IMG/VR virus record: IMGVR_UViG_3300032232_000455
Coordinates: 1-40,188 of that record
Length of the DNA stretch: 40,188 bases
Direction: 5' to 3' (one strand)
Source: a virus
Taxonomy: Duplodnaviria > Caudoviricetes
In this document: piece by piece, positions 3,128 to 32,484 of the stretch
How positions within the stretch are numbered: position 1 is the stretch's first letter
How the letters are laid out: each line of letters opens with the position of its first letter
Translations under genes and position numbers: made by a program
Notes under the pieces: model-generated
The model's database searches: none
Told to the model about the DNA's origin: nothing
The model's input: only the letters and a program-made list of their open reading frames with translations

Positions 3128-3437
3128 CCCTTGCTTAAGGGTAAAAGTGCAGGTCAGACCCCCACCACTATCAAATTTATGTGGGTAGAGATATACCGAT
3201 ACCGATACCAGCAGTTTAATAACCCTGGGGTGATAACTCACCCACTAGCAATGCTTGCTGTTTAAACAGTTAAGCACCTGCTTGCAAGGCTATGCATGCA
3301 GGCTTGGCTAGGACAAGGCAGGGCTAGGGCAGGCGAAGGCGCTGACTCTGTATAGCCTCGCGCTCTTTCATAGGATTCGCGCTCCCCCCCCAGCATGCAG
3401 GCTTGAGCATAAGTAGTTGAAAGTTCAACCATCGCCA

Positions 3438-3564
3438 TAAGTTACTGGCTAGTAAGTCGCTAAAGTCAGTTGTTTAACGACACTTTAGAGTTATGCCGAT
3501 ACAGTAAGAAACGAATTATCAGTGTATAGCACTGACTTTAGCCTTGTTACCACTCAGTAACTTA
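3438..3564. repeat. Long imperfect inverted repeat (33/34-bp arms, 60-bp spacer)
   Basis: TAAGTTACTG-N4-GTAA-N3/4-GCTAAAGTCAGT at 3438-3470 and its reverse complement at 3531-3564. Confidence 0.85.
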
Positions 3565-3691
3565 CGACTGTTTAAACTTTGGCTGTTCGCTGTTGGCTGT
3601 TTTTGCCCTCGATTTAGCCCTCAATCGGCTCGTGTCGCAAAAAAGTTTTATGCGTAGCGACCTGCGGTTTTATCTTTTTGGGCTGTATCTG

Positions 3692-3721
3692 TTGACACGA
3701 GTTTAAACAGGCGCGTATCTT
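3692..3721 (+). promoter_or_regulatory. Sigma-70/SigA-type early promoter with GTTTAAAC in the spacer
   Basis: TTGACA (3692-3697), 18 bp, TATCTT (3716-3721), then a 5' hairpin (tgtcgg/ccgaca) and the first early gene. Confidence 0.65.
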
Positions 3722-3762
3722 TCTCCTTGTCGGTTCAACCCCCGACAGACTGGATGCACCAA

Positions 3763-4296
3763 ATGCCTGTACTCAACCGCGAACAGTGGCTGGCAAGCCT
3801 TGCCATTGCTGTCCGCCCTCACATTGCTTCAATCATCCAAAACGGAGGCGATGAGGAATCTGCAATTCGCCTTTCTTGTGGCTTCCCTCCAAAATCAGGG
3901 CGCAAGGCTGTTTCAGCCTCAATCGTCCCTCCAACAGCATCAGCCGACTTTACAGCCGAGATTTTTGTGGCTCCGACTGTTGACGATGCCGAAACTGTTG
4001 CTCGCCTAATTCTGCCATTGCTCAAAATTGCTCAATCAGGCAACTGGCGCTCAGCCTCGGCTTCTGTTGCCGAACCTTTACAGACATTGCCCTCATGGAT
4101 TGAGCCAATTTTGGCTCGCCTTGGTGCATACCCTCATGCAAAAATCGAATTGACCGAGGCTCCAAAACAATCAACTCGCCTCATCAAGGTTGCCTGTTTA
4201 AACGACAACTACATTGCCCGAGTTTCTCGCTCAACCCTTGTGAATCTCGGCGCTCCAATCTGCCCTGCATGCCAACAATCACTAGTGGAGGCTTAA
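3763..4296 (+). CDS. SprT-like metalloprotease homologue, apparently lacking HExxH
   Basis: REQWL, RLSCGFP, EIFVAP, LGAYPHA, KQSTRLIK and C-terminal CPAC resemble phage SprT-like proteins; ATG 3763 preferred over TTG 3727. Confidence 0.55.
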   Translation: MPVLNREQWLASLAIAVRPHIASIIQNGGDEESAIRLSCGFPPKSGRKAVSASIVPPTASADFTAEIFVAPTVDDAETVARLILPLLKIAQSGNWRSASASVAEPLQTLPSWIEPILARLGAYPHAKIELTEAPKQSTRLIKVACLNDNYIARVSRSTLVNLGAPICPACQQSLVEA

Positions 4297-4300
4297 TCAA

Positions 4301-5074
4301 ATGTCACAATTCACTTACGGACTCGAGTTCGAGGTCAACGGAATCTCACCCTCTACGGCTTCAACTGTCCTCACTCAGGGCGGAATCAACTGTCTCGCCC
4401 CTCGAAATCAGCATGTGCTTTCAACCGAGTGGACAGCCGTTTATGACGGCTCAATCCAAGGAGCGGAAGTAGTTTCTCCAATCCTCAACGATGCCCGTTT
4501 AAACGAGGCTTCAACTGTTGCCCGCTTGCTTTTAAATGCAGGCGCAAAGGTTGACCGCTCAACTGGTTACCATGTCCACATTGGTTTCGATAGTTTTGGC
4601 GATACGCTCAACGACCGCTTCAACGCGCTTGCCAACTTCTACATCAACTGGCACACCGCTCACGAAACAATCGGCACCTTGGTTGCTCCAAGCCGTTTAA
4701 ACAACCGCTTCTGCAAGGTTCGCACTATTGCCGAGGCTCACGAGACAGCCGAGCAAATCCGAGCAGGTCGAATCGGAATCGGTGACCGCTATGTATCTCT
4801 CAATCTCGAGTCTTTTGACCGCCATGGCACAATCGAGGTTCGCCTACACCAAGGCACCTTGAATGGTCGCAAGGCTGTTGCTTGGGCAGAGTTCATTGCA
4901 GGACTCATTGACTACAGCAAGGCAAACAATCTGCTCGGAGCAACCTACTCACGAACAGACATCCGTTTAAACAACATCCAAACCCTGCTCGATGAAGTCG
5001 CACAAGACAACCTCGACATCCGAACAGCGGAATACCTCAAGCAACGCGCCTTGAGCCTACAAGGTCAGGCGTAA
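4301..5074 (+). CDS. Putative amidoligase (COOH-NH2 ligase, glutamine-synthetase-like fold)
   Basis: Motifs YGLEFE, DGSI, EVVSPIL, STGYHVH, RYVSLN, TIEVRLHQGTLN; GGAGG RBS. Confidence 0.88.
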   Translation: MSQFTYGLEFEVNGISPSTASTVLTQGGINCLAPRNQHVLSTEWTAVYDGSIQGAEVVSPILNDARLNEASTVARLLLNAGAKVDRSTGYHVHIGFDSFGDTLNDRFNALANFYINWHTAHETIGTLVAPSRLNNRFCKVRTIAEAHETAEQIRAGRIGIGDRYVSLNLESFDRHGTIEVRLHQGTLNGRKAVAWAEFIAGLIDYSKANNLLGATYSRTDIRLNNIQTLLDEVAQDNLDIRTAEYLKQRALSLQGQA

Positions 5075-5081
5075 GCCGACA

Positions 5082-5130
5082 GCCTGCCCCAAGTGGGCAA
5101 GCGAGGGAGCGTTACCCTCGGCAGGCACAA
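5082..5130 (+). ncRNA. tRNA-like minihelix (7-bp acceptor-like stem + 5-bp T-like stem with 7-nt loop); not a tRNA
   Basis: GCCTGCC/GGCAGGC and GAGGG-agcgtta-CCCTC followed by ACAA; intergenic. Confidence 0.45.
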
Positions 5131-5177
5131 ACAGATACGAGAGAGTCTCGTACTGTTTAAACAGATAGGACTGGAAA

Positions 5178-5333
5178 ATGAAAATCGAATACGCAATCTT
5201 TCAAGGTAGCCGTTGCATTGGTGTAAATCTTTTTGCATCAAGCATGAAAGAAATTAACAAGGCAATCGCCGAGTTAAATGTGGGCGAGTTAAAATTCACA
5301 GCACGCATCATAGCAATCAAGGCTGGTGTTTAA
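5178..5333 (+). CDS. Hypothetical protein (51 aa, MKIEYAIFQG...KAGV)
   Basis: Own translation; preceded by GGACTGGAA; stop codon lies inside GTTTAAAC. Confidence 0.7.
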   Translation: MKIEYAIFQGSRCIGVNLFASSMKEINKAIAELNVGELKFTARIIAIKAGV

Positions 5334-5335
5334 AC

Positions 5336-5425
5336 ATGGACATCTCAATCTTCGATGGTCGCTCGTTTCTCATCATTGGAATCATCGCCCTAACATGGGC
5401 ATGGTATTGGCTCGGCAATGAATAA
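5336..5425 (+). CDS. Small membrane peptide (29 aa, MDISIFDGRSFLIIGIIALTWAWYWLGNE)
   Basis: Own translation; coupled to both neighbours; one hydrophobic helix. Confidence 0.6.
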   Translation: MDISIFDGRSFLIIGIIALTWAWYWLGNE

Positions 5426-5603
5426 CGAATTGTTATACATCGTTGAGGGTGTAGACCCGAGCGGACGAAAGTTCGCTGGGGTTTACCCAAAGTCAGATGC
5501 GGATTACCTCGTTGCAAGTGACTGTTTAAACAAGGTTATTGGAACGCTCACCAATCGTGATACACTTAACTCATTAACGCCTAACAGACTGGAGAATAAA
5601 TAA
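5418..5603 (+). CDS. Hypothetical protein
   Basis: Overlaps the upstream stop and abuts the GATase start. Confidence 0.55.
   Translation: MNNELLYIVEGVDPSGRKFAGVYPKSDADYLVASDCLNKVIGTLTNRDTLNSLTPNRLENK
5539..5566 (+). promoter_or_regulatory. Putative internal promoter for the GATase gene
   Basis: TTGGAA, 16 bp, extended -10 TGaTACACT. Confidence 0.45.
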
Positions 5604-6410
5604 ATGTGTGGAATCGCAGGCTTCTGCCTTAACCCAAAGCATCATGTCAATACAACAGAGTTAGCATCGCAGATGCTTCTCGACATCGAACATCGTGGCT
5701 ATCACGCCACTGGTGTGGCATGGATTAACAAAGAGGGACGGCGTGCCATTACTAAGGCACCAATCTCGGCTTCTAAGTTCATTGCTACCAAGGCTGGTCA
5801 GAGTGTGTGCAAGGATGCAACAACAGCAATCCTGCATACACGCTGGGCAACTCAAGGTTCACCAACTGTAAACGATAACAACCACCCAATTCCTCGTGGC
5901 AAAATCGTACTCACTCACAACGGACACATCGCCAACGATGACCAACTGTTTAAACAACTCAAGGTCGGGCGCATCGGACAGGTAGACTCAGAGGCAGTCG
6001 CAGCATTGCTTGCCTTTACTCAGGGTCAACATCCTGCCGAGGTATTAACACGCATCCAAGGCAGTGCAGCATTGGCTTGGATTACACAAGACCAAGGCGA
6101 CACCTTGCACCTTGCTCGTGTATCCAACAGCCCACTGTGGATTGGTCAGACCTTGACTGGTTCACTGGTTTATGGTTCAACAGAGGAGACAATCGAGAAC
6201 GCAGGCATCATGCTCGGTTCGGATTTAGACTGGTCATACTCAGCAGAGGAAGGCGAGTACTTCAAGGTTAAGAACGGAAAGATTATTGAACATCAAAAGT
6301 TCAAGCCTTACCGCTCATCAGTCAGTCATGACTGGCGCAAGTATGCAATGGGAAAGTATGAGGATGAGTTAACCGAGCATGCAAGTTACTATGACTCGCA
6401 CTTATTCTAA
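5604..6410 (+). CDS. Class II (Ntn) glutamine amidotransferase
   Basis: N-terminal MCGIAG, HRG, HTRWATQG, NNHP, HNGHI and VDSE motifs. Confidence 0.92.
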   Translation: MCGIAGFCLNPKHHVNTTELASQMLLDIEHRGYHATGVAWINKEGRRAITKAPISASKFIATKAGQSVCKDATTAILHTRWATQGSPTVNDNNHPIPRGKIVLTHNGHIANDDQLFKQLKVGRIGQVDSEAVAALLAFTQGQHPAEVLTRIQGSAALAWITQDQGDTLHLARVSNSPLWIGQTLTGSLVYGSTEETIENAGIMLGSDLDWSYSAEEGEYFKVKNGKIIEHQKFKPYRSSVSHDWRKYAMGKYEDELTEHASYYDSHLF

Positions 6411-6423
6411 ACAATAAGAGACT

Positions 6424-6452
6424 AGCCCCTGCTTCGGCAGGGGTTTTTCTTT
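6424..6452 (+). terminator. Rho-independent terminator
   Basis: gcccctgc-TTCG-gcaggggt followed by a T-tract. Confidence 0.9.
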
Positions 6453-6479
6453 TGCCTTAGCACTCGCATCCAGAGACTG

Positions 6480-6780
6480 CTAATTGCATAGTGTTTAAAC
6501 ACATAAAAAGTTGACACCCGATTAACTACTATGGTTGTTAAATGTTTAAACAGTGCAGGAAATTACTCCAGGAAATCTGGTGCTGCATGCTGTTTAAACA
6601 AGGGTACTTGACACGGATGGTAAGGTAGGTTTTACCGCAGGTAAAACTAAAAGATAGATGCGGTTATGTTTAAACAAAAAAATAATTTAAAAAAGTTTTG
6701 GAATGTACTTGACACGCATTGCATACAGTATGAGATGATTCTTTTTGTAAGCAACCTTGCTTACCAAATAGATTGGAAAC
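6480..6780 (+). promoter_or_regulatory. Second early control region: 4x GTTTAAAC, 3x TTGACAC, 5' hairpin and GATTGGAA
   Basis: GTTTAAAC at 6493, 6544, 6592, 6668; TTGACAC at 6511, 6608, 6709; gtaagc/gcttac hairpin ~6747-6764. Confidence 0.6.
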
Positions 6781-6789
6781 TAGATTCAA

Positions 6790-6951
6790 ATGTTAACTTC
6801 AACAGACTTATTCGCTATCGTGATTCTGCTATTCGTATTGGTAGGAACACTCATCGCACTCATCGTAGGCAACCACGCACTCAACAACGACAACAAGAAC
6901 CTACGCAGAACAATTAAAATCTTGAAGGATGCACAGAAGGTGAGCAAGTAA
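6790..6951 (+). CDS. Small membrane protein (53 aa; TM helix + basic coiled tail)
   Basis: Own translation MLTSTDLFAIVILLFVLVGTLIALIVGNH...; stop abuts the next ATG. Confidence 0.7.
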   Translation: MLTSTDLFAIVILLFVLVGTLIALIVGNHALNNDNKNLRRTIKILKDAQKVSK

Positions 6952-7143
6952 ATGGCAGCATCAGTACATCAGAAGGCACAGGGCTTGGCAGTCAGGTACC
7001 TATGTCACAAGTATCATGAGGAGTACACAGCAAAGTATCGTGAATTCGTAATCGAAATGGGTGGCAAGGTGCATCCAACAAATGCCGAGCGCATCAAGAA
7101 CCTCAAAGCACAGATTGCAAAACTAGAAAGCGAGGGTGTTTAA
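6952..7143 (+). CDS. Hypothetical protein
   Basis: ORF track; tightly coupled with neighbours. Confidence 0.75.
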   Translation: MAASVHQKAQGLAVRYLCHKYHEEYTAKYREFVIEMGGKVHPTNAERIKNLKAQIAKLESEGV

Positions 7144-7145
7144 AC

Positions 7146-7400
7146 ATGTTAGCAACTAAAACTTACCAAGGCTGGGCAAACTATAAGACATGGAATGTGG
7201 CACTCATAATTAACAACGAGTACAAACTGTACTTATCAGCCTGTGATTTCATGAAACTATACAAGGGTGCTACCCCATACAAGTCTTGGGTTGAGCATGC
7301 TGGATTAAAAGATAAAGAAACTATTGACAGCGTGCCATTCATTGACGATAAACTATCTTACGCAGAACTAAATCAAATGATGAAGGGGCTGAACTCATGA
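7146..7400 (+). CDS. Conserved phage hypothetical protein (Y.GW.NY.TWNVAL family)
   Basis: Motif YQGWANYKTWNVAL resembles a recurrent small phage protein family. Confidence 0.75.
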   Translation: MLATKTYQGWANYKTWNVALIINNEYKLYLSACDFMKLYKGATPYKSWVEHAGLKDKETIDSVPFIDDKLSYAELNQMMKGLNS

Positions 7401-7552
7401 CACTGCTATGGAAAGCCGAGGTTACATCCGAGATGGTTGCACATCTTAGTGAGGAGAAAAAGGTGGAACTGTTCAGAGATTTATCAGAGGCTGTTGATGC
7501 GATTGGTGCAAAGGCAGAGGTGGGCAGGGAGTTTAAACATGACACCAACTAA
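7397..7552 (+). CDS. Hypothetical protein (51 aa, MTLLWKAEVTSEM...)
   Basis: Own translation; ATGA overlap with the upstream stop. Confidence 0.65.
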   Translation: MTLLWKAEVTSEMVAHLSEEKKVELFRDLSEAVDAIGAKAEVGREFKHDTN

Positions 7553-7685
7553 ACTGCTTGTCTCTACTACACGCACACAAATAAAGGTTAGCGATGAACT
7601 AACAGATGATGAACTGCTTGCGATGATTGACGAAATTGCTCGCAAACTACAAGCAAGGGAGGAAAGCAAATGCCTAAAGGCGTAG
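7539..7685 (+). CDS. Hypothetical protein (48 aa, MTPTKLLVST...)
   Basis: ATG immediately after GGGAGTTTAAAC; C-terminal part of ORF 7437..7685. Confidence 0.6.
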   Translation: MTPTKLLVSTTRTQIKVSDELTDDELLAMIDEIARKLQAREESKCLKA

Positions 7686-8047
7686 TGCTATACACCGATG
7701 GAACCTATGAGGAAAAGGATTTCAATGGACTCAAAGACATGCAAGGTGCAGTCAATGGGTTGATTGAGATTGTCCACATGTACGATTACTATGGAGATGA
7801 AGTACTCACAGGCTATGTAAACGAGGAAGGCATCATGCTTGAACTACCACTGAACACAGTGGCGAGCGCGTTGTCTTTCATGTTCGGCAATAACCCAATG
7901 ATGCTTGGCAATATGATTGTGCTAGGCAAGGATGATGGAGAAGGCAATGACACAGACATACCGCAAGACATCCTCGCGTTCATCAAGAAAGTATGCGCGG
8001 ACAAGAGCAAGGTTGAGGCTGAGTATGCTGAACAAACTAACGCCTAG
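7670..8047 (+). CDS. DUF3846-like hypothetical protein
   Basis: MQGAVNGLIE, YVNEEG...LPLN..AS, GNMIVLG pattern; GGAGG RBS. Confidence 0.7.
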   Translation: MPKGVVLYTDGTYEEKDFNGLKDMQGAVNGLIEIVHMYDYYGDEVLTGYVNEEGIMLELPLNTVASALSFMFGNNPMMLGNMIVLGKDDGEGNDTDIPQDILAFIKKVCADKSKVEAEYAEQTNA

Positions 8048-8471
8048 TGGTAGATTGTGGCTGGTAACAGTCATAGTATTCGGGTTGGCAATCGCATTAT
8101 TCCCCCGCGATTCCCGCTTAGTCATCCCGTTTAAACACTCAGCCATGTCGGGACAAGTGGTTGCTTATTACACAAACGATTACCAACGCTATGCCATAGA
8201 CCAACTAACCAAAGACGGACGGCTTGAACAGTGGTCATGTCTGCATGATTTATGGACACGAGAAAGTAACTGGCGACCAGCAGCATTGAACAAGTCAAGC
8301 AAAGCAGCAGGTATTGCACAGTTAATGCCTGTTACTTGGGGCTTGGTTGGTCACTCACAAACAGAGGACGGTTATGCACAGGTAGATGCAGGCTTGGCAT
8401 ACATAGAAAGAAAATACGGAGGCAACATCTGCAAGGCATACGCTTCGAGTCTGTCGAGGGGGTGGTACTAA
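8025..8471 (+). CDS. Membrane-anchored lytic transglycosylase (SLT/lysozyme-like, actinobacterial type)
   Basis: N-terminal TM; CL..LW.RES.W...A.N..S.A.GIAQ, GLAYIE..YG and C-terminal GWY. Confidence 0.85.
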   Translation: MLNKLTPSGRLWLVTVIVFGLAIALFPRDSRLVIPFKHSAMSGQVVAYYTNDYQRYAIDQLTKDGRLEQWSCLHDLWTRESNWRPAALNKSSKAAGIAQLMPVTWGLVGHSQTEDGYAQVDAGLAYIERKYGGNICKAYASSLSRGWY

Positions 8472-8665
8472 TGACACAATATCAAACACTCAGAGAAGAA
8501 CTTAAAGCACACCTAGTTGTAACTGGTTTATGTTTAAACGCAGAGAATCCCCACGATGCGGTAGTGGTTCGCTCAACAAAAGCGGACATCGTGATTGACA
8601 CACTATTGGATTATCTGATTGGGGCAGGATATGCAAGCGTTTCAAAAACTACCGACCATACCTAA
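8471..8665 (+). CDS. Hypothetical protein
   Basis: TAATG coupling to the upstream gene. Confidence 0.65.
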   Translation: MTQYQTLREELKAHLVVTGLCLNAENPHDAVVVRSTKADIVIDTLLDYLIGAGYASVSKTTDHT

Positions 8666-9002
8666 GTATCACAGAATCATGCAACAAAAGATTGTAAAGG
8701 GGTTGATTTACTATCGGCTCAACTACAACGGAGAAGTTATGTCGAAAGGTGCATGTCGAGGTTCAAACACAGAGATGTTTTACCCCGAGATTGTGCAGTA
8801 CACACGAGTAGAGACTAAGTTCTATGACAAACTATGTAAGGATTGCCCAATCAAACGGGCATGCTTGGAGTGGGGCTTAGTTCATGAAAGGCAAGGGGTA
8901 TGGGGTGGCACAACGCCCGATGCTAGAGTAGGAATACGCAAGATGCTAGGCTGGGCAGTGACAGACCCACATACATTTAGCGATTTGGCATGGCGTTCGT
9001 AG
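8631..9002 (+). CDS. whiB: WhiB-family Fe-S transcription factor
   Basis: C...CxxC...C pattern with GVWGG motif. Confidence 0.92.
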   Translation: MQAFQKLPTIPKYHRIMQQKIVKGLIYYRLNYNGEVMSKGACRGSNTEMFYPEIVQYTRVETKFYDKLCKDCPIKRACLEWGLVHERQGVWGGTTPDARVGIRKMLGWAVTDPHTFSDLAWRS

Positions 9003-9013
9003 TCTGTTAGGCT
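8985..9013 (+). promoter_or_regulatory. SigA-type promoter pointing into the 9021-9066 hairpin
   Basis: TTGGCA, 17 bp, TAGGCT with TG extended -10; no + strand ORF downstream. Confidence 0.6.
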
Positions 9014-9019
9014 ACAACA

Positions 9020-9066
9020 GAGAAGCACCGCTTGAGGTTCCAGTCCCTCGCGGTGCTTCTTCTTTT
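9020..9066 (+). ncRNA. Candidate small regulatory RNA; also the terminator between convergent modules
   Basis: 11-bp stem agaagcaccgc/gcggtgcttct, inner gagg/cctc, loop TTCCAGTC, T-rich tail; loop complementary to the early-gene RBS motif. Confidence 0.55.
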
Positions 9067-9601
9067 ATACTAAGTTAATTTCTTTCTGCTTAGCCAGCAT
9101 AAATACTTCATCGGCTAAGTCATTGAGGTCGCCATGATTAAGAATCAAATCATCAAAGCGCCAGTTATCCATTGCAGTTTCAGATGCATGTAAGTTCACA
9201 GGCTTGTGTCCTTCACGCTGTACACGCCACACCTGCCCACCCTTGTCAATGATTGCTTGTGCTTCATTAGGAAAGCGAACATCCGCAAACACAACGCGCT
9301 CTTGCTGCACTTGTTTAAACGCTAAGTCAACCCAGAAGTTTTCGCCAAACATTTCTCTACCAACTTCGGTGCCAAACACCTGCAACAAACGGCGCACCTC
9401 AGGGTTGTGCTTGGCTAATTCCCATCCATAATCATTAACCAAATGAGATAACGGTTCGTGACCAACGACAGGGTTTAAACGCATCAGTGCTTCACGCATT
9501 GGGTCAGCAAATGATACGCGCTTGTATCCATAGTTTAAACACAACAGTTCAGCAACTGTATCTTTACCTGACTGTGCGTATCCGCTCAAACCTATAATCA
9601 T
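9065..9601 (-). CDS. Deoxynucleoside monophosphate kinase
   Basis: IIGLSGYAQSGKDT P-loop, SFADP, RRLLQVFGTE, DVRFPNEA. Confidence 0.9.
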   Translation of the reverse strand: MIIGLSGYAQSGKDTVAELLCLNYGYKRVSFADPMREALMRLNPVVGHEPLSHLVNDYGWELAKHNPEVRRLLQVFGTEVGREMFGENFWVDLAFKQVQQERVVFADVRFPNEAQAIIDKGGQVWRVQREGHKPVNLHASETAMDNWRFDDLILNHGDLNDLADEVFMLAKQKEINLV

Positions 9602-10269
9602 TCTTGTCCACTCACTTCCTGTCGTGCTTCTGCGTTAGTGCGATTGCGCCTACGCCCATACCATACTGGTGCCTCGCCACCTAGTCTATCTTGCAACTTA
9701 GTCAGCGCTCTCTTGACACGCTTGCGTATGGCTTCCTCTGTTGCTTGGTATTCCTCAGCCAAAGCATCAAACTCCATGCCACCATCAGCGTATCTCAGCC
9801 GCAGGAGTGCCTGGTCTGCATCGTTTAAACGCTTTAGCCCAGCCGCTACATCAGATAGCAACGCCATTCGGTTGCCACCTTCTGCTGGCTTGCTCGACTT
9901 AGATACAAACTCATTGCTTAAGTCTGCGGTATCTGTCCACCCTTCGTGTGTCCACACATCACGCAATAGTTCATGCAACACCTCATGTGTGTAGTAAAAA
10001 CTATCAGACATAGGCGTGCGTGAGTGATGCATGCGCTCTTTTGCAACATACTTCTGTGCTTCATTGTAAAAAGTACGGCGTAGTTTAAACTTCAACGACT
10101 CTTGCTGTTCCCATTCTTCTATCTTGTGCCAGTGTTCCAACGCCCACAAAGATAGGTGTTGATACACATCATCAGTAGTTACCAGTCCACGATGGATGCG
10201 GTTACTGCGTGATGCAACCTGTCGTGCTGTGCCGTAGATAGTTTCCCAAATCTTATCTTGCTCATCCAT
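9598..10269 (-). CDS. Sigma-70-family RNA polymerase sigma factor
   Basis: Region-2-like DDVYQHLSLW and region-4 HTH (L...DQALLRLRY.DG...ALAEEY..TEEAIRKRVKRALTKL); likely start ATG 10269. Confidence 0.8.
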   Translation of the reverse strand: MDEQDKIWETIYGTARQVASRSNRIHRGLVTTDDVYQHLSLWALEHWHKIEEWEQQESLKFKLRRTFYNEAQKYVAKERMHHSRTPMSDSFYYTHEVLHELLRDVWTHEGWTDTADLSNEFVSKSSKPAEGGNRMALLSDVAAGLKRLNDADQALLRLRYADGGMEFDALAEEYQATEEAIRKRVKRALTKLQDRLGGEAPVWYGRRRNRTNAEARQEVSGQE

Positions 10270-10423
10270 TGCGACCCCTAATAATTTCAATGGCTTGTTT
10301 CCTGCCATTAGTAATGCCTTGAATGTAAGCAAAAGGTTTACCACTACCAGTATCTTGCATGTGTTCAGCAGGAATAAAGTAACAAGCCTTTTCAATAGAC
10401 TCTATTAGTTCTTCATCACTCAT
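10262..10423 (-). CDS. Hypothetical protein
   Basis: Overlaps both neighbours; AAGG RBS. Confidence 0.6.
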   Translation of the reverse strand: MSDEELIESIEKACYFIPAEHMQDTGSGKPFAYIQGITNGRKQAIEIIRGRNG

Positions 10424-10823
10424 CCTTGGGTTCTTCCTTCTCATTCTTTAACTTACGCATTGCTGTTAACAAATCATCTACTGTAATCAAGTAACCCTTG
10501 CTTTTATTCGGGGGAATCTCGCATGTTATCTCACGCCCAAACTCTTTAATGGCATACAACACATGGCTTGTTGGCACCATGAGCACACCCTTCTCTAGTA
10601 CAAATGCCCAGTATGCAGCCTCAGTAACCATGATGCCCGATGGCTCCCATGATTTAGACTTCATGAACCAGCACTCAACTTCAATGTAAAGATTGTTAGT
10701 AACCCACCATTTGCGGTCACGCTTGACTTCTATAGTCTTGCCTTCGGTTAACAGTTCCTCTACTAACTGCTCACCTTTTCTACCGTATCCAAAATCTAAA
10801 TCAAATGATGAGTTCTTTGCCAT
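10416..10823 (-). CDS. PD-(D/E)xK nuclease-like hypothetical protein
   Basis: G..GE, IEVK.D, N.YIE, PSG..TEA.YW pattern. Confidence 0.55.
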   Translation of the reverse strand: MAKNSSFDLDFGYGRKGEQLVEELLTEGKTIEVKRDRKWWVTNNLYIEVECWFMKSKSWEPSGIMVTEAAYWAFVLEKGVLMVPTSHVLYAIKEFGREITCEIPPNKSKGYLITVDDLLTAMRKLKNEKEEPKDE

Positions 10824-10825
10824 GT

Positions 10826-11446
10826 TTAAACACCCGCTCGTTTATGTAGTCCTTCTGCGCCCTCGGCGAGGAACACATCATTCACATCACAGTTCTCAGG
10901 CATAAAGATTGGGAACACATTGTCCAGTTCACGAGTGATTGTCTTAGCCATCTCCTTGCCAGCGTTGTCACCATCACAGAACAACATAATCTTTTCCCAG
11001 TCCGCAAGGACACGAGAGTAAAATGGTTTCCAGTTATTAGCACCAGGCAAACCAACAGCAGCGAAGCCCACTTGTGTGGCAATCATCGTGTCAATCTCAC
11101 CTTCACAAATGACCAACACATCTGATTCAGAGTTCAATGCAGCAACATTAAAAATGTGTGTGCTTGCACCTGGTCTTGATAAATACTTTGGTCCGCTATC
11201 TGCGTTTAAACTGCGGAAGCGTATGTCAATTACTCCTGATGGTGTCAAGTATGGGATAGCCAACTTACCTTGGTATGGTTCGTGCCCTGTCTCAGGATTC
11301 TTTACGAAGCCGAGGCGGAACATAAGTGCTGTCTCCTTGGTTATACCTCGAGCCTCCAGGTACGGAGCCACCTCGTCTAGGTTTCTTTCGTAGTTCTCCG
11401 TTGCTTTCGCCAGTAATTCCCTCTGCGATTTCGAGAGCCTTGACAT
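10826..11446 (-). CDS. DNA primase, Toprim part
   Basis: YLEARGI, IPY, RFR, PKYL, ICEGEID, DGDNAG, DVND. Confidence 0.9.
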   Translation of the reverse strand: MSRLSKSQRELLAKATENYERNLDEVAPYLEARGITKETALMFRLGFVKNPETGHEPYQGKLAIPYLTPSGVIDIRFRSLNADSGPKYLSRPGASTHIFNVAALNSESDVLVICEGEIDTMIATQVGFAAVGLPGANNWKPFYSRVLADWEKIMLFCDGDNAGKEMAKTITRELDNVFPIFMPENCDVNDVFLAEGAEGLHKRAGV

Positions 11447-11669
11447 AGGTAACTCCTTCTTTCTTCATAATAAGTGAGTAGACATCCCCAGCCATGTCAC
11501 ATGCGAAGCAGCGAAACCCGCCGTTGTCTATGTTTAAACGCGCTGACTTAACCTTATCATTGTGGAAGGCACACCGCACGGTGACCCAACCACCACGATT
11601 AGTTGGTACTGTAAATCCGTAATGCTCTAGTACTTTAACGATGTCATGCTTAGAGTTTTGGGAGCGCAT
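11292..11669 (-). CDS. DNA primase zinc-binding (CHC2) part
   Basis: CAFHND..SA and FRCFAC..AGD; overlaps the Toprim ORF. Confidence 0.85.
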   Translation of the reverse strand: MRSQNSKHDIVKVLEHYGFTVPTNRGGWVTVRCAFHNDKVKSARLNIDNGGFRCFACDMAGDVYSLIMKKEGVTYVKALEIAEGITGESNGELRKKPRRGGSVPGGSRYNQGDSTYVPPRLRKES

Positions 11670-12015
11670 CGCGGAGCCTCTGGACAACATACGATTCTCC
11701 AATCCCCTTGTTACTTGCTTTAATAATTACTAATGGTGCTGGTGCAATCACCAGTCGTTTCTGTATACGATAGTTATCTGCTTCGAGTTCTGCCTCACGC
11801 AACCATCCACTCAAATCAATTCGACCATCACGGCGTGGTGCCTTTGCTTCAATGACATAGCCATCTGCGTTAGCAGGAAGGTATACATCACCGATGTCAT
11901 TGCGCCCTGCACGAGGCAAACGCTGTGCGTTGAAACCCTGTGCCATAAGCCAGTCTGCTAGTTCTATTTCAAATGCAGCACCTCTGCGCTTGTTACTCGC
12001 TTGCTGTGTTGGCAT
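11650..12015 (-). CDS. Holliday junction resolvase (Hjc-like)
   Basis: NKRRGAAFE, D.GD and VIEAK motifs. Confidence 0.8.
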   Translation of the reverse strand: MPTQQASNKRRGAAFEIELADWLMAQGFNAQRLPRAGRNDIGDVYLPANADGYVIEAKAPRRDGRIDLSGWLREAELEADNYRIQKRLVIAPAPLVIIKASNKGIGESYVVQRLRDALPKL

Positions 12016-12721
12016 CTTGCTTGTTCCTTTCTGCGCTTTCAATGGCTGCCCAATAGAGGTTGTAATAGTTATCATCAAAAGCAAACCGCTTCATGTGCTT
12101 GACCAATGCAGCAGTGTTAGCCACAACTGGTACGCCAGCAGCCTTTACCTTACGGAAGAAGGCGATGTCCTCACCAATAAACAAATCACCACTTGCATTG
12201 TTCTCAGCAAACACAAAGTCAGACTCACCAAACTTCTCATGCAGTGCCTTGATAACAGACTTATGCATCAACACCAAGCCCAACCCAGCATGGTCTACCT
12301 TAATAACTTGATTGCGTGGTAGTGGGTGGTGGTATTTAATTTCGTACTCGTTCCGCCCTTCATTAAAGATAGCAGGCATCGGTTGCATCAACGAGTTTTC
12401 CATCTGCTTAGAGATAAAGTACACACCGCTTACGATAGGTCGAGCAATCTTGTCAGCGGTATCCCATAGAATCTTAACAACCTCTTTAGTAAGTACGATG
12501 TCGGAGTCAACCCACAACGCCCAGTCAGTACCAACCTTGTCCCACATTTCAAATGCAGCCTGTCGTTGGCGAGCAATCTGATTGCCTTGTACACGGATAG
12601 CGTTATGGAATGGCACATCACCAGTGATGATGCTGTATACCAAGCCCTCTGTAAACTTGCCGTCAGTGTTTCCGTTGTCGCACCAAATAACTGATAGCGT
12701 TTCTTTATTACTATGCGCCAT
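11993..12721 (-). CDS. GT-A fold (family 2-like) glycosyltransferase
   Basis: IARQR, WVDSDI (DxD), G.G.VL, GED..F, terminal H.K. Confidence 0.8.
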   Translation of the reverse strand: MAHSNKETLSVIWCDNGNTDGKFTEGLVYSIITGDVPFHNAIRVQGNQIARQRQAAFEMWDKVGTDWALWVDSDIVLTKEVVKILWDTADKIARPIVSGVYFISKQMENSLMQPMPAIFNEGRNEYEIKYHHPLPRNQVIKVDHAGLGLVLMHKSVIKALHEKFGESDFVFAENNASGDLFIGEDIAFFRKVKAAGVPVVANTAALVKHMKRFAFDDNYYNLYWAAIESAERNKQDANTASE

Positions 12722-13130
12722 GTTTAAACACTTCCTCTGATTTGTCTAGTACTTCCATTGCGTTCTCTGCTAGGTCTTTCCATGAAGCGCTCATTAGTCG
12801 GAGTTGAATGGCGATTTCTTCTCTGCACTCTGGTCCGTGGTCCTCAGTAAGATGCTGAGCCAACTGCCCAACATAATCAGCGAACTGTAAAGACTCGAAC
12901 CAGACTTGTGCGGGGTCGTAGATTTTTTGTGTAGCCTCGTCAATGCGTTCAATAAACTCTGGTAGTCCATCAAGAATTGCTTGTTTCAACTCCGCTGGTA
13001 CTTGCTTCGATGACATCACTGCTTCCGTCATCATCTCGGGAGTAATTGATAGTGCCTTCATTAAGGAGTCTTTTGAATTCCTCATCTGTGAGGTCCTTGA
13101 ATCTTCCGCTTTCTTCTTCTTGCCAAACAT
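12711..13130 (-). CDS. Hypothetical protein (start uncertain, perhaps ~13034)
   Basis: ORF track; fills the operon. Confidence 0.6.
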   Translation of the reverse strand: MFGKKKKAEDSRTSQMRNSKDSLMKALSITPEMMTEAVMSSKQVPAELKQAILDGLPEFIERIDEATQKIYDPAQVWFESLQFADYVGQLAQHLTEDHGPECREEIAIQLRLMSASWKDLAENAMEVLDKSEEVFKHGA

Positions 13131-13296
13131 ACGCTCTCCATCCCACTGTCCATGAAAACTGTTTCGGTATAAACATCAACTGCGCTTTAATGTCTGTAAT
13201 CAATGGCTTAGCCTGGACGACTACATCCTCTGCGTTTAAACTACCTTGTAGTTCTCCTGCATTTTCTACGATTTTGATTTCCCATTTGGGTGTCAT
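12970..13296 (-). CDS. Hypothetical protein
   Basis: AAGGAG RBS; follows the helicase. Confidence 0.7.
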   Translation of the reverse strand: MTPKWEIKIVENAGELQGSLNAEDVVVQAKPLITDIKAQLMFIPKQFSWTVGWRAYVWQEEESGRFKDLTDEEFKRLLNEGTINYSRDDDGSSDVIEASTSGVETSNS

Positions 13297-13305: not shown

Positions 13306-14085
13306 TTATGATTGTAATAAATCTGCCAGTTGCATACTGGCTGGGTTGTATGCAAGCCACACTGGACTTGCACCTGTTGAATCGGCTGGACCATAACGAT
13401 TCTTCACAGCACACACACCCATCGAAGCGATTTGGTTATACACCGTAAGGATTAACGAAGGGGTCTGAGCAATTTTTCCGTGCAGGGAACTGCTTGGTGG
13501 GCAAGGATTACCCACAACCCCCTGACTTGTATGGTGGCAAACAACAACAGCAGCGCCAGTTTCTCTAGCCCACCACTTGAGTTCACGCATAAGTGTGCGT
13601 AGTCCGCCCCACTCATCTTGTCCATCAAGGGTTACATCAACTGCGTTGTCAAGCACGATGAGTTCAACATCTTGACCTAAGCGCTCTCGTGTTGCAAGGA
13701 CTGCATCCTCTACATCCTTAAGCGTAGGTGCTGAGTCAAACTCCCACATGATGTGGTCAGCAGGCTTGAGCATTTGTGCAGCCCAGTCTCTGTCTGCTTC
13801 CATCAATGGTTCTACTTCTTGTTGTGGTCTGCCTGTAATCATCGCAAGCAGGCGCAGGCTCATGGTATGTGAGTGAGTGTCTGCTGAAATGTACAGGGTG
13901 GGAACTTGAGCATGGACTGCAAGTGACAAGGCAAAGGTAGATTTACCTGAACCTGGAGGACCTGCAACCATGCTCACTTCCCCCCGTCTAAACGCTATCT
14001 GCTGCTCAGCAAGTGAGCGCCACACCGTAGGTAATGTGGCACCCCCTTGCGAGGCAGTCTTGATAGCACGGGATAAACGGCGCAT
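13306..14085 (-). CDS. DnaB-like (RecA-fold) helicase
   Basis: GPPGSGKST Walker A, LIVLD Walker B, VKNRYG arginine-finger motif. Confidence 0.85.
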   Translation of the reverse strand: MRRLSRAIKTASQGGATLPTVWRSLAEQQIAFRRGEVSMVAGPPGSGKSTFALSLAVHAQVPTLYISADTHSHTMSLRLLAMITGRPQQEVEPLMEADRDWAAQMLKPADHIMWEFDSAPTLKDVEDAVLATRERLGQDVELIVLDNAVDVTLDGQDEWGGLRTLMRELKWWARETGAAVVVCHHTSQGVVGNPCPPSSSLHGKIAQTPSLILTVYNQIASMGVCAVKNRYGPADSTGASPVWLAYNPASMQLADLLQS

Positions 14086-14088
14086 GTA

Positions 14089-14520
14089 CTACGCGTTTAC
14101 TCTGTTACTGCATTGTGAGCCTTGTGGCTGTGGGCATGAGTAGAAGGCACGGTATGCCTTGCCAGCCTTTGAGATACCAGCAGGTACTAACCGCATTGGA
14201 CCAGCGCCACATGCACACTGTGGTTTAACAGCAGGTGCTGGTGCATAACCTTGTGCAGCAGGTGCGTACTGCTGTGCTGGCTGTGCGTGTGCAGGCATTG
14301 GTGCTGCACCTTGGTTGATAACTTCTGCTCCAGGGAATGAAGTCTTAACTGTAGCCATACCTTCAACGGTTGTCTCAAGGTCAACCAACGCTGCAATGCG
14401 CTGGCTTACTGCATCAAGCAAGGTATCAAGTTCCAACGCATCGGATGCGTAGAGGTTGATAAGCATGCCATCCTTCTTTGTCTTGAAGTTAATCTGAATC
14501 GCTGCGTTTTGATTACTCAT
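14089..14520 (-). CDS. Hypothetical protein with Pro/Ala linker and C-terminal zinc ribbon
   Basis: CAC..GPM...Y..FYSC......C. Confidence 0.7.
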   Translation of the reverse strand: MSNQNAAIQINFKTKKDGMLINLYASDALELDTLLDAVSQRIAALVDLETTVEGMATVKTSFPGAEVINQGAAPMPAHAQPAQQYAPAAQGYAPAPAVKPQCACGAGPMRLVPAGISKAGKAYRAFYSCPQPQGSQCSNRVNA

Positions 14521-15355
14521 TTGTTTCTCCTAGTTCGGGGTACATGTGTGAATCTTCACCTTTAACTGCATAGCATGCCTTATTGACAGAACAAGTACCA
14601 CACATAAATCCTGGCTGTGGGATAAAGATGTTGTTGTCAACGGCAATCTTGAATCCACTTACCCATTGTGCAAGGCGTGGTTCTGTGTAGTGCGATAGGT
14701 CAACTGGAGGTGTTAACTCACCAGTACGAGCCATGAAGTACGCCCCCAAGGTAGGACGGATTCCCAGCAACTTCTCAGTCATGATGGCATAAGTGCCTAA
14801 CTGAGTAAATGCTACTGGTGGTTTACTGGATGTCTTGATGTCCACCACTACAAGTTCGCCTGTTGGCGCAACCATAAGGCGGTCAAGAAATCCTTTCATG
14901 TTTACTCCACCAACCTCCACATTGAGTTCGGTTTCGATTGCAGGTGCTCCATCTGGCAGGTGGTACATCTGGTACCCACTGTCCTGTCGGAACTGAACCC
15001 AGAAATCAAGCATCTTCGGTCCATTATCTAACCACCAAGAAGTATCTTCTTTATTTGGATACGCCTTGGTTGCTCTACCACCAGCACGGAACGGCATGCC
15101 GTTATCAGCAAGACGATAGTTCTCCTCCCATCGTGCAGTAAATACTGCAGTAGAGTCAAAATCACCCATAAGGGGTGGTAGGGCATCGTAGATTTCTGTA
15201 CCTTCATGCAAGGACTTGCCACCTACTAGCCAGTAGGATGGGTTCTCAGCGACTTTCTGAATACGGGATAGATAATACGACCAACCACAGTTAAGCCATG
15301 TACTCATGGCGCTGTGGGAGATGTAGTTCTTCCCAGTTTTTTCTTCTAGTGTCAT
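14513..15355 (-). CDS. Cas4/RecB-like PD-(D/E)xK exonuclease
   Basis: ISHS...W.NC, GFLDRL, VVDIKT, QL..YA, C..C.....C; AAGGAG RBS. Confidence 0.88.
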   Translation of the reverse strand: MTLEEKTGKNYISHSAMSTWLNCGWSYYLSRIQKVAENPSYWLVGGKSLHEGTEIYDALPPLMGDFDSTAVFTARWEENYRLADNGMPFRAGGRATKAYPNKEDTSWWLDNGPKMLDFWVQFRQDSGYQMYHLPDGAPAIETELNVEVGGVNMKGFLDRLMVAPTGELVVVDIKTSSKPPVAFTQLGTYAIMTEKLLGIRPTLGAYFMARTGELTPPVDLSHYTEPRLAQWVSGFKIAVDNNIFIPQPGFMCGTCSVNKACYAVKGEDSHMYPELGETNE

Positions 15356-15943: not shown

Positions 15944-15955
15944 GTTTAAACAGTA

Positions 15956-16141
15956 TTACTTTGAGCCGCGACCAAACTCAGTTGCTGATGGGTCAAGCCA
16001 CTTGAGTAGTGGACCTGCAAAGCCTGCAAGGGCTGCAGCAGCAAGGGTCTTAAGGTCCGTCTCGCCAGCAAGGTAAAGTGCAATCGCAGCAGATGCCGCA
16101 GCACGGAACCATGTCAGTCCGAGTTGCTTAAATTGTTCCAT
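15956..16141 (-). CDS. Holin-like membrane protein
   Basis: Two hydrophobic segments, WLDP...FG C-terminus; next to the endolysin; GAGGAGG RBS. Confidence 0.7.
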   Translation of the reverse strand: MEQFKQLGLTWFRAAASAAIALYLAGETDLKTLAAAALAGFAGPLLKWLDPSATEFGRGSK

Positions 16142-16155
16142 TGTTTCCTCCTCGT

Positions 16156-16656
16156 TTATTTTGTACCGTGCAATTTGCAACATGTACAAACTTCGGTTGT
16201 GTATGCCTTTTTAGCAGGCACGGGTGTTATCTTTGAGATAACTTGATTAACAATCTTAGGTTGATTCATCCACCAAAACCACGGAGAAGTATCGGTAGCC
16301 ATAGCGGACTCAATAGAAATATGTAGATGCTTATTATGAGGATTACTCCCAGTGTACCGTCTGTTTCCCAACTTGGATTTTTCTTTGGACCAGATTTGTC
16401 CTTTGAAAATAAGGTACTTAACGCGCTTATCCTCTTTAAGTTTTTCAAAAATTTCAACACAATCAATTCCGTTCTTAGGGTCGTGCGTTAAATCAACAGC
16501 ATGCCCTGTGTTATGGTCACTGGCTGGACTCTGCTTGAGATGAGCGTTCGATGGAAGAAGCCCATCGCTGGCTTTCATACGCAATGGTGCTATCGCTGTG
16601 GCTTGGCGCAGGACTGCAAGTGCAGCAGGTGTGGCTTTCTTGACAACAGGTTTCAT
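16156..16656 (-). CDS. Endolysin (Zn-peptidase, M15-like)
   Basis: SDHN.G.AVD and H..H.HIS motifs; lysis-cassette position. Confidence 0.7.
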   Translation of the reverse strand: MKPVVKKATPAALAVLRQATAIAPLRMKASDGLLPSNAHLKQSPASDHNTGHAVDLTHDPKNGIDCVEIFEKLKEDKRVKYLIFKGQIWSKEKSKLGNRRYTGSNPHNKHLHISIESAMATDTSPWFWWMNQPKIVNQVISKITPVPAKKAYTTEVCTCCKLHGTK

Positions 16657-16925
16657 TTAGATTCATCTTCCTTCTTCTTACTCTTGAGTCCGTTGGCAGA
16701 TACAATTCCTGCTAATGTTCCAGTAAGGAACACAGTTAGTGTAGATACAAGGTCAATGAAGGCTGCATCGTTAGGTGCTTGCTTCATTGGTTGTGTTACA
16801 AATACCAATGCCCATAACAGGGCAAATACAGAACCAGCAAATACAATGGCTAGGATGATTCCAATACTGACAATCAATCTAGCGTGTAGTTCTTCTGCTG
16901 TATATCTTTCAGGGCGTTTCATCAA
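16653..16925 (-). CDS. Two-TM membrane protein
   Basis: Two long hydrophobic stretches, charged tail. Confidence 0.7.
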   Translation of the reverse strand: MMKRPERYTAEELHARLIVSIGIILAIVFAGSVFALLWALVFVTQPMKQAPNDAAFIDLVSTLTVFLTGTLAGIVSANGLKSKKKEDESK

Positions 16926-17097
16926 ATACCTCTGGTAATAAATCGGAGGAACAAGTACCTGTTACTTCACATTGAGGTGGGTTGCACTCTGGTTTTTCCC
17001 AGTTCTCAAATTCTTGACAAGGATAACGAACCCATCCTTGGTAACCACAACCACTAAGAGTTATTGCGAGAAAGAAGGATGCGATAAATTTCTTCAA
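16909..17097 (-). CDS. Small Cys-rich lipoprotein
   Basis: MKK + hydrophobic core + LSGC lipobox. Confidence 0.65.
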   Translation of the reverse strand: MKKFIASFFLAITLSGCGYQGWVRYPCQEFENWEKPECNPPQCEVTGTCSSDLLPEVFDETP

Positions 17098-17257
17098 CCT
17101 GTCGTTCCAATCTATTGACTGAATCTTTTAGGGAACTTCCAGAGTTAGGCTTAAGTTCGTACAAGTAATGCTTTACTAGCCACCTTACTGCAGTAGCAAA
17201 TGCAGCAATAAGGGTACAAAGTGATACGGCTAAGCCTAGCCACTGAGCAGGAGTCAT
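17054..17257 (-). CDS. Membrane protein (TM + short coiled coil)
   Basis: N-terminal TM, SSLKDSVNRLE coiled coil; AAGGA RBS. Confidence 0.7.
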   Translation of the reverse strand: MTPAQWLGLAVSLCTLIAAFATAVRWLVKHYLYELKPNSGSSLKDSVNRLERQVEEIYRILLSRNNS

Positions 17258-17273
17258 TTATTTTCCTTATGTA

Positions 17274-19238: not shown

Positions 19239-19268
19239 TATGTCTCCTTAGTCTAGGCATAAAAAATA

Positions 19269-19295
19269 GAGCAGTTTAAACGCATGCTCAGGCGT
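19269..19295 (-). ncRNA. Candidate H-type pseudoknot, copy 1
   Basis: ACGC-CUGAGCAU-GCGU-UUAAAC-UGCUC followed by a U-tract; second copy at 39056. Confidence 0.55.
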
Positions 19296-19307
19296 AATAA
19301 CTATTTG

Positions 19308-20009: not shown

Positions 20010-20027
20010 TTTGTCCCCTTTGGTTAT

Positions 20028-20402: not shown

Positions 20403-20404
20403 TT

Positions 20405-21630: not shown

Positions 21631-21645
21631 TTGTTGTTCCCTTTC

Positions 21646-23904: not shown

Positions 23905-23912
23905 TTTTTAAC

Positions 23913-25737: not shown

Positions 25738-25739
25738 TT

Positions 25740-26091: not shown

Positions 26092-26093
26092 AA

Positions 26094-26342: not shown

Positions 26343-26350
26343 GGCTCCTC

Positions 26351-26880: not shown

Positions 26881-26901
26881 TGTTTGTCCTTACTAATAAG
26901 T

Positions 26902-26930: not shown

Positions 26931-26938
26931 CCGCACGA

Positions 26939-32480: not shown

Positions 32481-32484
32481 AGTC

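What the first reader, a model, noticed from the sequence alone, without database searches (positions are those of the whole stretch)
3260..13241. Highly iterated palindrome GTTTAAAC with a steep positional gradient
Seen: I counted at least 37 exact copies by eye. Twenty-nine lie in 3.2-13.3 kb (3260, 3570, 3701, 4196, 4497, 4695, 4965, 5155, 5328, 5524, 5948, 6493, 6544, 6592, 6668, 7138, 7531, 8129, 8532, 9313, 9473, 9533, 9823, 10083, 10824, 11204, 11532, 12722, 13234). Only 8 lie in the remaining ~30 kb (15944, 17625, 19274, 23970, 25874, 34153, 34180, 39530). Roughly one copy is expected by chance if GC is ~45% (my estimate). Copies occur in several reading frames (R/C/S-L-N, F-K, V-stop), on both coding strands, in a promoter spacer and between genes, so selection is on the DNA and not the protein. 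Phages usually deplete palindromes (this one is the PmeI site). Analogies are cyanobacterial HIP1 and mycobacteriophage stoperators, though the latter are asymmetric. Inference: a binding array for a dimeric phage or host protein that coats the early (possibly first-injected) DNA for silencing, protection or uptake.
Basis: partly seen in the sequence, partly recalled or inferred. Interest (0 to 1): 0.82.

Follow-up and report, generated by a model that had tools for sequence, protein, structure and literature searches.

The report
This lake phage carries 37 selected copies of the eight-letter palindrome GTTTAAAC, mostly across its early genes, and in related and unrelated phages the word appears, changes or vanishes together with one small zinc-ribbon protein, so the copies are likely that protein's binding sites and likely let it damp the phage's own early genes.

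Summary
Confirmed: 37 GTTTAAAC at the stated places (about 1 expected; 24 in genes against 1.6-2.2 after codon shuffles), 29 in 3.26-13.24 kb, where the protein sequences too are bent to hold the word. The window is a complete BF-like podovirus genome of the group that infects freshwater Nanopelagicales. The likely reader is its first early gene (3763-4296): a SprT-like domain lacking HExxH plus a zinc ribbon, with a site in its own promoter spacer. The word follows the ribbon, not the host: 8 of 9 unrelated phages and plasmids with the same KQxTR arm are enriched for GT[T/G]TAAAC; other arms go with other words (RNTNL: TTAAGAC; Shocker: CTGTAAAG) or none; genomes that avoid TTAA use a one-letter variant. 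The ribbon is predicted to dimerise through a central Arg-bearing strand. Best reading: a self-regulating repressor with operator and roadblock sites, working like L5 stoperators but unrelated to them; binding and repression are untested. This scan found the same link before on other DNA (at least 8 notes); I reached it independently. I found no paper naming the site; one preprint names the protein as a candidate repressor.

The parts
3260..13241 (.). Dense array: 29 GTTTAAAC (3260, 3570, 3701, 4196, 4497, 4695, 4965, 5155, 5328, 5524, 5948, 6493, 6544, 6592, 6668, 7138, 7531, 8129, 8532, 9313, 9473, 9533, 9823, 10083, 10824, 11204, 11532, 12722, 13234) over the rightward early genes and the far part of the leftward replication genes
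15944..39537 (.). Sparse sites: 15944, 17625, 19274, 23970, 25874, 34153, 34180, 39530; late genes use 6 of 11 peptide positions able to hold the word
3692..3721 (+).
   Evidence: 10 of 12 consensus matches, best of 8 hits
3701..3708.
3763..4296 (+). Likely reader gene (start 3763 or 3754): SprT-like zincin fold without HExxH, then a zinc ribbon
4129..4293 (+). Zinc-ribbon domain; encoded alone (about 55 aa) in 15 of 27 A-type relatives; site 4196 overlaps the codon of its invariant Cys
4165..4179 (+). Basic arm KQSTR (Arg142 invariant in 98 rows); the arm differs where the word differs
4210..4227 (+). Strand YIARVS (residues 153-158, Arg156 invariant), predicted to pair with its mate across the dimer axis
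6424..6455 (+). Terminator-like hairpin ending the first early operon (reader, amidoligase 4301-5074, glutamine amidotransferase 5604-6410)
6493..6714 (+). Four intergenic sites before the second promoter-like TTGACA (6709); last site 41 nt upstream across an A-tract, a spacing kept in A, B and C relatives
5328..12729 (.). Five sites placed directly before a start codon (5328, 7138, 7531 on +; 10824, 12722 on -)
13306..15355 (-). Site-free proximal replication genes (DnaB, L5 gp49-like, exonuclease): 1 site in 38 kb of pooled A-type orthologues
3300..3630 (.). Inferred position of the virion DNA ends, by analogy to BF phages (terminal repeat 253-275 nt, terminase 624-679 nt from the left end); not observed

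Best explanation
The 37 copies are a selected DNA word that is likely bound by the zinc ribbon of the phage's first early protein (3763-4296), which is predicted to bind as a dimer and would repress its own promoter and damp transcription through the early and middle genes. Steps: (1) shown: the word is over-represented, conserved and written into proteins; (2) shown by comparison: word and ribbon appear, change and vanish together; (3) predicted: a two-fold dimer whose central strand (Arg156) and arm (Arg142) suit a palindrome; (4) inferred: host RNA polymerase transcribes the gene first from P1, the protein accumulates, occupies the P1 spacer (negative feedback) and the downstream sites (roadblocks, about one per 350 nt), switching early genes off while late genes and the first replication genes stay nearly free; (5) inferred: the protease activity is dispensable for this, since it is dead here and deleted in many relatives.
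For: Word; in A-type relatives under 85% identity motif bases are 93.8% conserved against 72.8% for flanks, 348 of 425 sites intact, against 12 of 163 in C-type relatives. Non-kin: 8 of 9 named phages and plasmids with a KQxTR arm are enriched for GT[T/G]TAAAC (Venkman 34 vs 1.7, Cen1621 28 vs 0.04, VResidence 23 vs 0.17, JasmineDragon 20 vs 0.13, Alexa 8, Arya 7, pUT1 5, Persinger 4); 0 of 5 with another arm and 0 of 4 without the domain; Shocker (arm SKNWQ) has CTGTAAAG 45 times. 7 of the 9 have a site within 60 nt upstream of the gene. Reverse test on loci of 10 kb or more picked by three close sites: domain in 14 of 20 dense non-kin, 0 of 17 sparse non-kin, 20 of 21 kin. 74 of 80 RNTNL-type loci are dense in the C word, 0 of 80 in the A word. 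Dimer model 0.57 against best control 0.00 (mark reached by 20 of 30 solved homodimers and 1 of 23 single chains; counts hold roughly; contacts agree at least 96%; pLDDT at least 75); no solved relative by sequence. Cluster AZ preprint lists the SprT-like protein as a candidate immunity repressor and notes clear plaques for the N-terminally truncated Liebe versus turbid for Maureen (10.1101/2025.05.26.655371, passages).
Against: No binding or expression data. The word is nearly the same across two bacterial phyla, whereas immunity operators usually diverge. Lytic-looking Shocker spaces its word evenly over structural genes too, which early shut-off does not explain. 24 of 37 sites are inside genes, and for L5 a simple steric block was argued against (PMC9283540). 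The Ralstonia insidiosa plasmid has the arm but only two GTGTACAC; pUT1 has no site within 200 nt upstream. 6 of 20 dense non-kin loci showed no domain within the locus; among 60 loci under 10 kb, left out of the headline count, the domain was in 4 of 8 kin, 2 of 37 dense non-kin and 0 of 15 sparse; loci were not de-duplicated. Within the family the gene is linked to the whole early module, so kin counts are not independent. The site 41 nt upstream of the second -35 box could serve activation. The Liebe observation points to a role for the protease domain, which is dead here.
Confidence: 0.57

Rival explanations
1. Same reader, but the sites are a self-tag: the protein coats the element's own DNA at regular intervals to shield it from, or (with an active SprT domain) to cut off, host defence or silencing proteins; the promoter site only sets the dose.
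For: Even 1-per-kb spacing in both orientations in Shocker; word conserved across hosts and plasmids; sites sit wherever tolerated, including between ribosome site and ATG; 98 of 150 family members keep HExxH; fold resembles SPRTN/Wss1 weakly (Z 4.6-4.8); strong restriction pressure on these genomes.
Against: Protease dead or deleted in all A/B kin examined; late two-thirds of the window poorly covered; sites fixed in promoter spacers or just after the -10 box.
Confidence: 0.22
2. Same reader, but the array paces DNA entry: the block is the first-injected 10 kb, pulled in by transcription from P1, and bound protein slows or pauses entry.
For: Array starts at the inferred end and drops about 10 kb in, inside a leftward gene run; same profile in A, B and C types.
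Against: End and entry direction not observed; siphoviruses, myoviruses and plasmids carry the same pair; restriction-site avoidance is genome-wide, not confined to the block; site-free genes are also the most conserved.
Confidence: 0.08
3. The reader is another protein of the early module (WhiB, amidoligase, DUF3846) or a host GntR/HutC-type regulator whose recalled consensus GT.TA.AC fits the word.
For: All 30 A/B blocks also carry amidoligase and amidotransferase; the word matches the recalled consensus.
Against: Unrelated carriers share the zinc-ribbon gene and their annotations list no amidoligase; Planktophila phages E7 and F5 carry WhiB but 1 and 0 copies; arm changes track word changes.
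Confidence: 0.08
4. A host genome signature or HIP1-like word made by methylation-linked repair.
For: Eight-letter palindrome with few one-letter variants, as for HIP1 (PMC4390886 abstract).
Against: No methyltransferase among 61 window proteins; phages with near-identical backbones carry different words; local rather than uniform; follows a phage gene across phyla.
Confidence: 0.03

Closest known systems
Operator/stoperator system of Cluster A mycobacteriophages (L5, TipsytheTRex; PMC9283540, passages seen)
   Same: More than twenty short sites over the genome, in promoters and elsewhere, likely read by one phage protein that would repress initiation and elongation.
   Different: 8-nt palindrome against 13-nt asymmetric site; mostly inside genes against short intergenic spaces; predicted zinc-ribbon dimer against monomeric two-helix-turn-helix protein; no integrase found in the window; word shared across host phyla.
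Cluster AZ SprT-like protein (Lizalica gp46; bioRxiv 10.1101/2025.05.26.655371, passages)
   Same: [quoted passage not shown]
   Different: The passages seen name no binding site; AZ proteins keep HExxH and their phages use GTGTAAAC, oriented 19 of 23 one way in VResidence; the window's protein lacks HExxH.
HIP1 of cyanobacteria (PMC4390886, abstract)
   Same: Highly iterated 8-nt palindrome in all reading frames, with alternative words in some lineages.
   Different: Chromosome-wide and tied to methyltransferases; here phage-local and tied to a zinc-ribbon gene.
SprT/SPRTN/Wss1 metalloproteases (PF10263)
   Same: Zincin fold followed by a zinc-binding part.
   Different: No HExxH in the window's protein; SPRTN-type DNA binding is not sequence-specific (recalled).
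Ribbon-helix-helix repressors (Arc, MetJ, CopG; recalled)
   Same: Predicted antiparallel strand pair at the dimer axis followed by a helix; short palindromic site.
   Different: Strand is embedded in a zinc ribbon, second helix absent, extra basic arm; no sequence match to any solved chain.

Membership tests
Cluster A stoperator system | More than 20 sites across the genome including promoters | tested here: met
   37 sites, one in the P1 spacer
Cluster A stoperator system | 13-nt asymmetric site | tested here: not met
   8-nt perfect palindrome, weak Y/R flank preference only
Cluster A stoperator system | Orientation follows transcription | tested here: inconclusive
   Undefined for a palindrome; asymmetric B and C words do not flip between rightward and leftward genes but codon limits can explain it; AZ/EH sites are oriented
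Cluster A stoperator system | Sites mainly in short intergenic spaces | tested here: not met
   24 of 37 inside genes
Cluster A stoperator system | Monomeric HTH plus Stoperator-domain repressor | tested here: not met
   No such hit among 61 proteins; co-varying gene is a zinc ribbon predicted to dimerise
Cluster A stoperator system | Blocks initiation and elongation | not testable with these tools
   Needs reporters or transcription assays
HIP1-type word | 8-nt palindrome strongly over-represented in all frames | tested here: met
HIP1-type word | Cognate methyltransferase in the same genome | tested here: not met
   None in Pfam or PHROGs scans of 61 proteins; host methylases not examined
HIP1-type word | Chromosome-wide host signature | not tested
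   No host genome could be reached; indirect evidence against
SprT-like metalloprotease (PF10263) | Zincin fold and homology to SprT-like proteins | tested here: met
   Aligns end to end with annotated SprT-like proteins; model pLDDT 91.7 matches zincins at Z 5.5, rmsd 2.7, 75 residues; Pfam itself gives no hit
SprT-like metalloprotease (PF10263) | HExxH catalytic motif | tested here: not met
   Window has ILPLL at the place of LAHEL
Ribbon-helix-helix | Intermolecular two-stranded ribbon at the dimer axis | tested here: inconclusive
   Predicted contacts 154-158 across chains; model only
Ribbon-helix-helix | Strand followed by two helices | tested here: not met
   One helix (159-165) in the model

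The most novel reading that the evidence does not exclude
A widespread, undescribed family of zinc-ribbon DNA readers (1168 clusters at 50% identity) gives phages and plasmids a portable address code: the element writes a short word all over its own DNA, even bending its proteins and dodging host restriction to keep it, and the ribbon delivers an interchangeable front domain (active SprT protease, dead scaffold, another domain, or nothing) to those sites. It would act as the missing immunity repressor of Cluster AZ phages and, in integrase-free lake podoviruses, as swappable immunity modules holding a dormant or shielded state in starved cells.
Probability: 0.3. Interest if true: 0.88.

Novelty: new variant of a known kind. 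Interest (0 to 1): 0.72.

Why it matters
It assigns a likely sequence-specific role to a large family annotated only as 'SprT-like protease', offers a testable repressor-operator pair for Cluster AZ phages, whose repressor is unidentified, and gives a natural specificity code (arm KQxTR, RNTNL, RNKNL, SKNWQ against words GTTTAAAC, TTAAGAC, TTAAGTC-shifted, CTGTAAAG) for a 45-residue reader. It shows a functional DNA word surviving restriction pressure by a one-letter change, and it is a first handle on gene control in phages of the most abundant freshwater bacteria.

Tried and rejected
Terminase and sigma-like HTH domains as reader: rejected, same in A and C phages. Amidoligase/amidotransferase and WhiB as reader: rejected. 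Restriction-site loss as a feature of the early block: rejected; AGCT, CCGG, GATC, GGCC are absent and ACGT nearly so in early and late parts alike. Host genome count: genome scan gave two phage-like contigs in proteobacterial bins only, no host handle. Physical ends: only contigs available, no pile-ups; small shares not used. ESM Atlas: best 0.82, uninformative. Fold search of the ribbon alone: best Z 3.2, generic rubredoxin-like matches; Foldseek on the full model no hit at E<=0.001. NCBIfam and Pfam: no family for the ribbon. Pfam on 50 homologues showed SprT-like as the only recurrent partner. Forward scan with the wide alignment could not run. Orientation test inconclusive. Literature: 10 searches; none of the listings named GTTTAAAC or GTGTAAAC as a phage site or a SprT-linked operator; subscription papers and bioRxiv supplements (including those of the AZ preprint, which mentions unshown repeats) could not be seen. 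PMC12143481 and PMC12363180 (passages) added nothing.
Full report
What the window is. The first and last 123 bases are identical, inside the portal gene, so this is a circular assembly of a whole phage genome (100% complete). It encodes terminase, portal, capsid, DnaB, split primase, RusA, a sigma-like factor and WhiB; no integrase or methyltransferase was found among 61 proteins scanned. The closest named records by capsid are Planktophila phages E7 and F5 (69%) and Streptomyces BF phages (53-57%). E7 and F5 lyse 'Ca. Planktophila' (PMC10202952, part 1 of 2 of the text read), so a Nanopelagicales host is likely. BF genomes have 253-275-nt terminal repeats with the terminase 624-679 nt from the left end; by analogy the ends here fall near 3.3-3.6 kb, where the array starts. 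That is inferred; public runs held contigs only.

All 37 coordinates are right; about 0.9 copies are expected and one-letter variants are nearly absent. Codon shuffles give 1.6-2.2 against 24 in genes. Between 3.7 and 13.3 kb the proteins themselves offer 23 places able to spell the word against 3.7 after amino-acid shuffling; late genes offer 11 against 9.0. The clustering exceeds all 20000 random placements. In A-type relatives below 85% identity the word is kept at 93.8% per base against 72.8% for flanks.

Relatives carry different words. Of 44 non-duplicate blocks upstream of the terminase (58 found, 14 duplicates dropped), 27 have GTTTAAAC (A), 3 GTCTAAAC (B), 10 an imperfect GTCTTAAGAC with a fixed TTAAGAC half (C) and 4 (E7, F5, two BF) none; the density profile from the terminase start is alike in A, B and C. 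The word goes with the whole early module: L020 and L021 share 94-97% terminase identity with the window yet carry the C module and word, with a few A sites left in the backbone. On a terminase tree of 39 rows (the 2 BF rows and 3 partial rows left out) C needs 4 changes, at least 3 forced by strong branches. The helix-turn-helix stretches of the terminase and the sigma-like factor are the same in the window and L020, so neither reads the word.

B is a restriction-forced variant. G004 has 0 TTAA against 70 expected, L153 0 against 44; VResidence 1/37, Cen1621 0/8, JasmineDragon 0/21 and Shocker 0/16, which also use asymmetric words, avoid it too, while all seven GTTTAAAC users checked keep TTAA. 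The B-type ribbon has the same arm and strand as A. The restriction enzyme is inferred, not seen. The word is therefore kept even when its core must change.

The likely reader. The first early gene aligns end to end with proteins annotated SprT-like protease but lacks HExxH; its model (pLDDT 91.7) gives weak zincin matches (best Z 5.5; SPRTN 4.8). Its last 50 residues, a zinc ribbon with arm KQ[ST]TR, are the only constant part: 15 of 27 A-type phages encode them alone. C phages have an intact SprT domain and arm RNTNL. The family is wide: 1168 clusters at E<=0.001, arm Q[TSG]TR in 125 of the best 150, HExxH in 98.

The word follows the ribbon outside this phage group. I picked named carriers from tblastn lists (177, 145, 11 and 70 records) and counted words in 14. 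Eight of nine with a KQxTR arm are enriched: Venkman 34 GTTTAAAC vs 1.7, Cen1621 28, VResidence 23 and JasmineDragon 20 GTGTAAAC vs under 0.2, Alexa 8, Arya 7, pUT1 5, Persinger 4. The Ralstonia insidiosa plasmid is the miss, with two GTGTACAC, one in the gene's promoter. Of five with other arms none is enriched: Dismas and Quenya lack both invariant arginines and show no such word; phiAsp2 and CB457P2 (50 kb of each) show none; Shocker, arm SKNWQ on a different front domain, has CTGTAAAG 45 times (41 without the repeated end), the same word with its outer pair swapped. Hosts span Actinomycetota and Pseudomonadota. In a reverse test on 118 new loci picked by three close GTTTAAAC, those of 10 kb or more held the domain in 14 of 20 dense non-kin, 0 of 17 sparse non-kin and 20 of 21 kin; the 60 shorter loci gave 4 of 8, 2 of 37 and 0 of 15; duplicates were not removed. 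Of 80 loci found with the C ribbon 74 are dense in the C word and none in the A word; two with RNKNL shift toward CTTAAGTC.

Placement suggests an operator. Seven of the nine named carriers have one within 60 nt upstream; Venkman's lies in the annotated first codons and pUT1 has none within 200 nt. In VResidence four sites directly follow a -10 box. A second geometry, a site 39-48 nt upstream of a -35 box, recurs in A, B and C and could be repressing or activating.

Two copies of residues 128-180 with zinc scored 0.57 against a best control of 0.00 (mark reached by 20 of 30 solved pairs and 1 of 23 single chains, counts rough here; contacts agree at least 96%; pLDDT at least 75). Strand 153-158 pairs with its mate around Ala155/Arg156; Arg142 and Arg156 are invariant in 98 rows. 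No solved chain is related by sequence. This resembles a ribbon-helix-helix reading head (recalled); it is a model, without DNA.

How it most likely works. Shown: selection on the word, its link to the ribbon, its place in the gene's own promoter. Inferred: the protein is made first, binds as a dimer, shuts its own promoter and damps the early and middle genes, leaving late genes and DnaB, gp49-like and exonuclease genes nearly free (1 site in 38 kb pooled). The AZ preprint (passages) reports that no immunity repressor is identified in these temperate phages, lists the SprT-like protein as a candidate and links its truncation to clear plaques; the passages give no site. Against: even spacing in Shocker, a word shared across phyla, and L5 evidence against plain steric blocks (PMC9283540, passages). 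The main rival is a protective self-tag; entry pacing, another reader and a host signature are weaker. Host chromosomes were not counted.

Comparison and novelty. It works like the Cluster A operator/stoperator system but fails its membership tests (site, placement, protein). It is not HIP1 (PMC4390886, abstract). Ten literature searches showed no paper naming the site (listings only, except the six papers opened). This scan's notes report the same link on other genomes (read after my own result); they are unchecked leads, not support. What this window adds: a dead protease, stand-alone ribbons, repeated module swaps with a second arm-word pair, TTAA-forced variants and a dimer model. Verdict: real, new variant of a known kind, interest 0.72.

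Noticed in passing
window 3112-3127; C-type loci L020, L021, G002, G005; E7, F5: Perfect TGTGA-N6-TCACA boxes (CRP/GlxR consensus, recalled): one in the window upstream of the terminase, 3-5 per genome at early promoters in all 10 C-type blocks, 2 each in E7 and F5. May tie these phages to host cAMP signalling.
   Followed up: partly
whole window: AGCT, CCGG, GATC and GGCC are absent and ACGT occurs once; G003 also lacks TCGA, G004 TTAA, E7 and F5 CATG: a read-out of host restriction sets that could sort phages by host.
   Followed up: partly
   Followed up: no
window 1055-2953: Terminase with an N-terminal helix-turn-helix-like extension also present in BF phages; possibly a fused small subunit.
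   Followed up: no
L189 (Shocker) 41341-41682: Zinc ribbon fused to an unassigned 60-residue front domain, with CTGTAAAG about once per kb and four times in the 484-nt terminal repeat.
   Followed up: partly
L045, L051, L075, L049: Phages with both GTTTAAAC and GTCTAAAC and partial TTAA loss; may be caught mid-switch between hosts.
   Followed up: partly
C-type early blocks and E7/F5: GACAGGAGA start-associated sequence, fused to the C word as TTAAGACAGGAGA.
   Followed up: no
window 25081-26342 and 39089-39262: Run of small, very lysine-rich ORFs after the capsid gene, possibly DNA-condensing core proteins.
   Followed up: no
L180 (phiAsp2): Repeated TTGACACTTCACAGTCA element about 14 times, one just upstream of its SprT-like gene; looks like a repeated promoter.
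   Followed up: no
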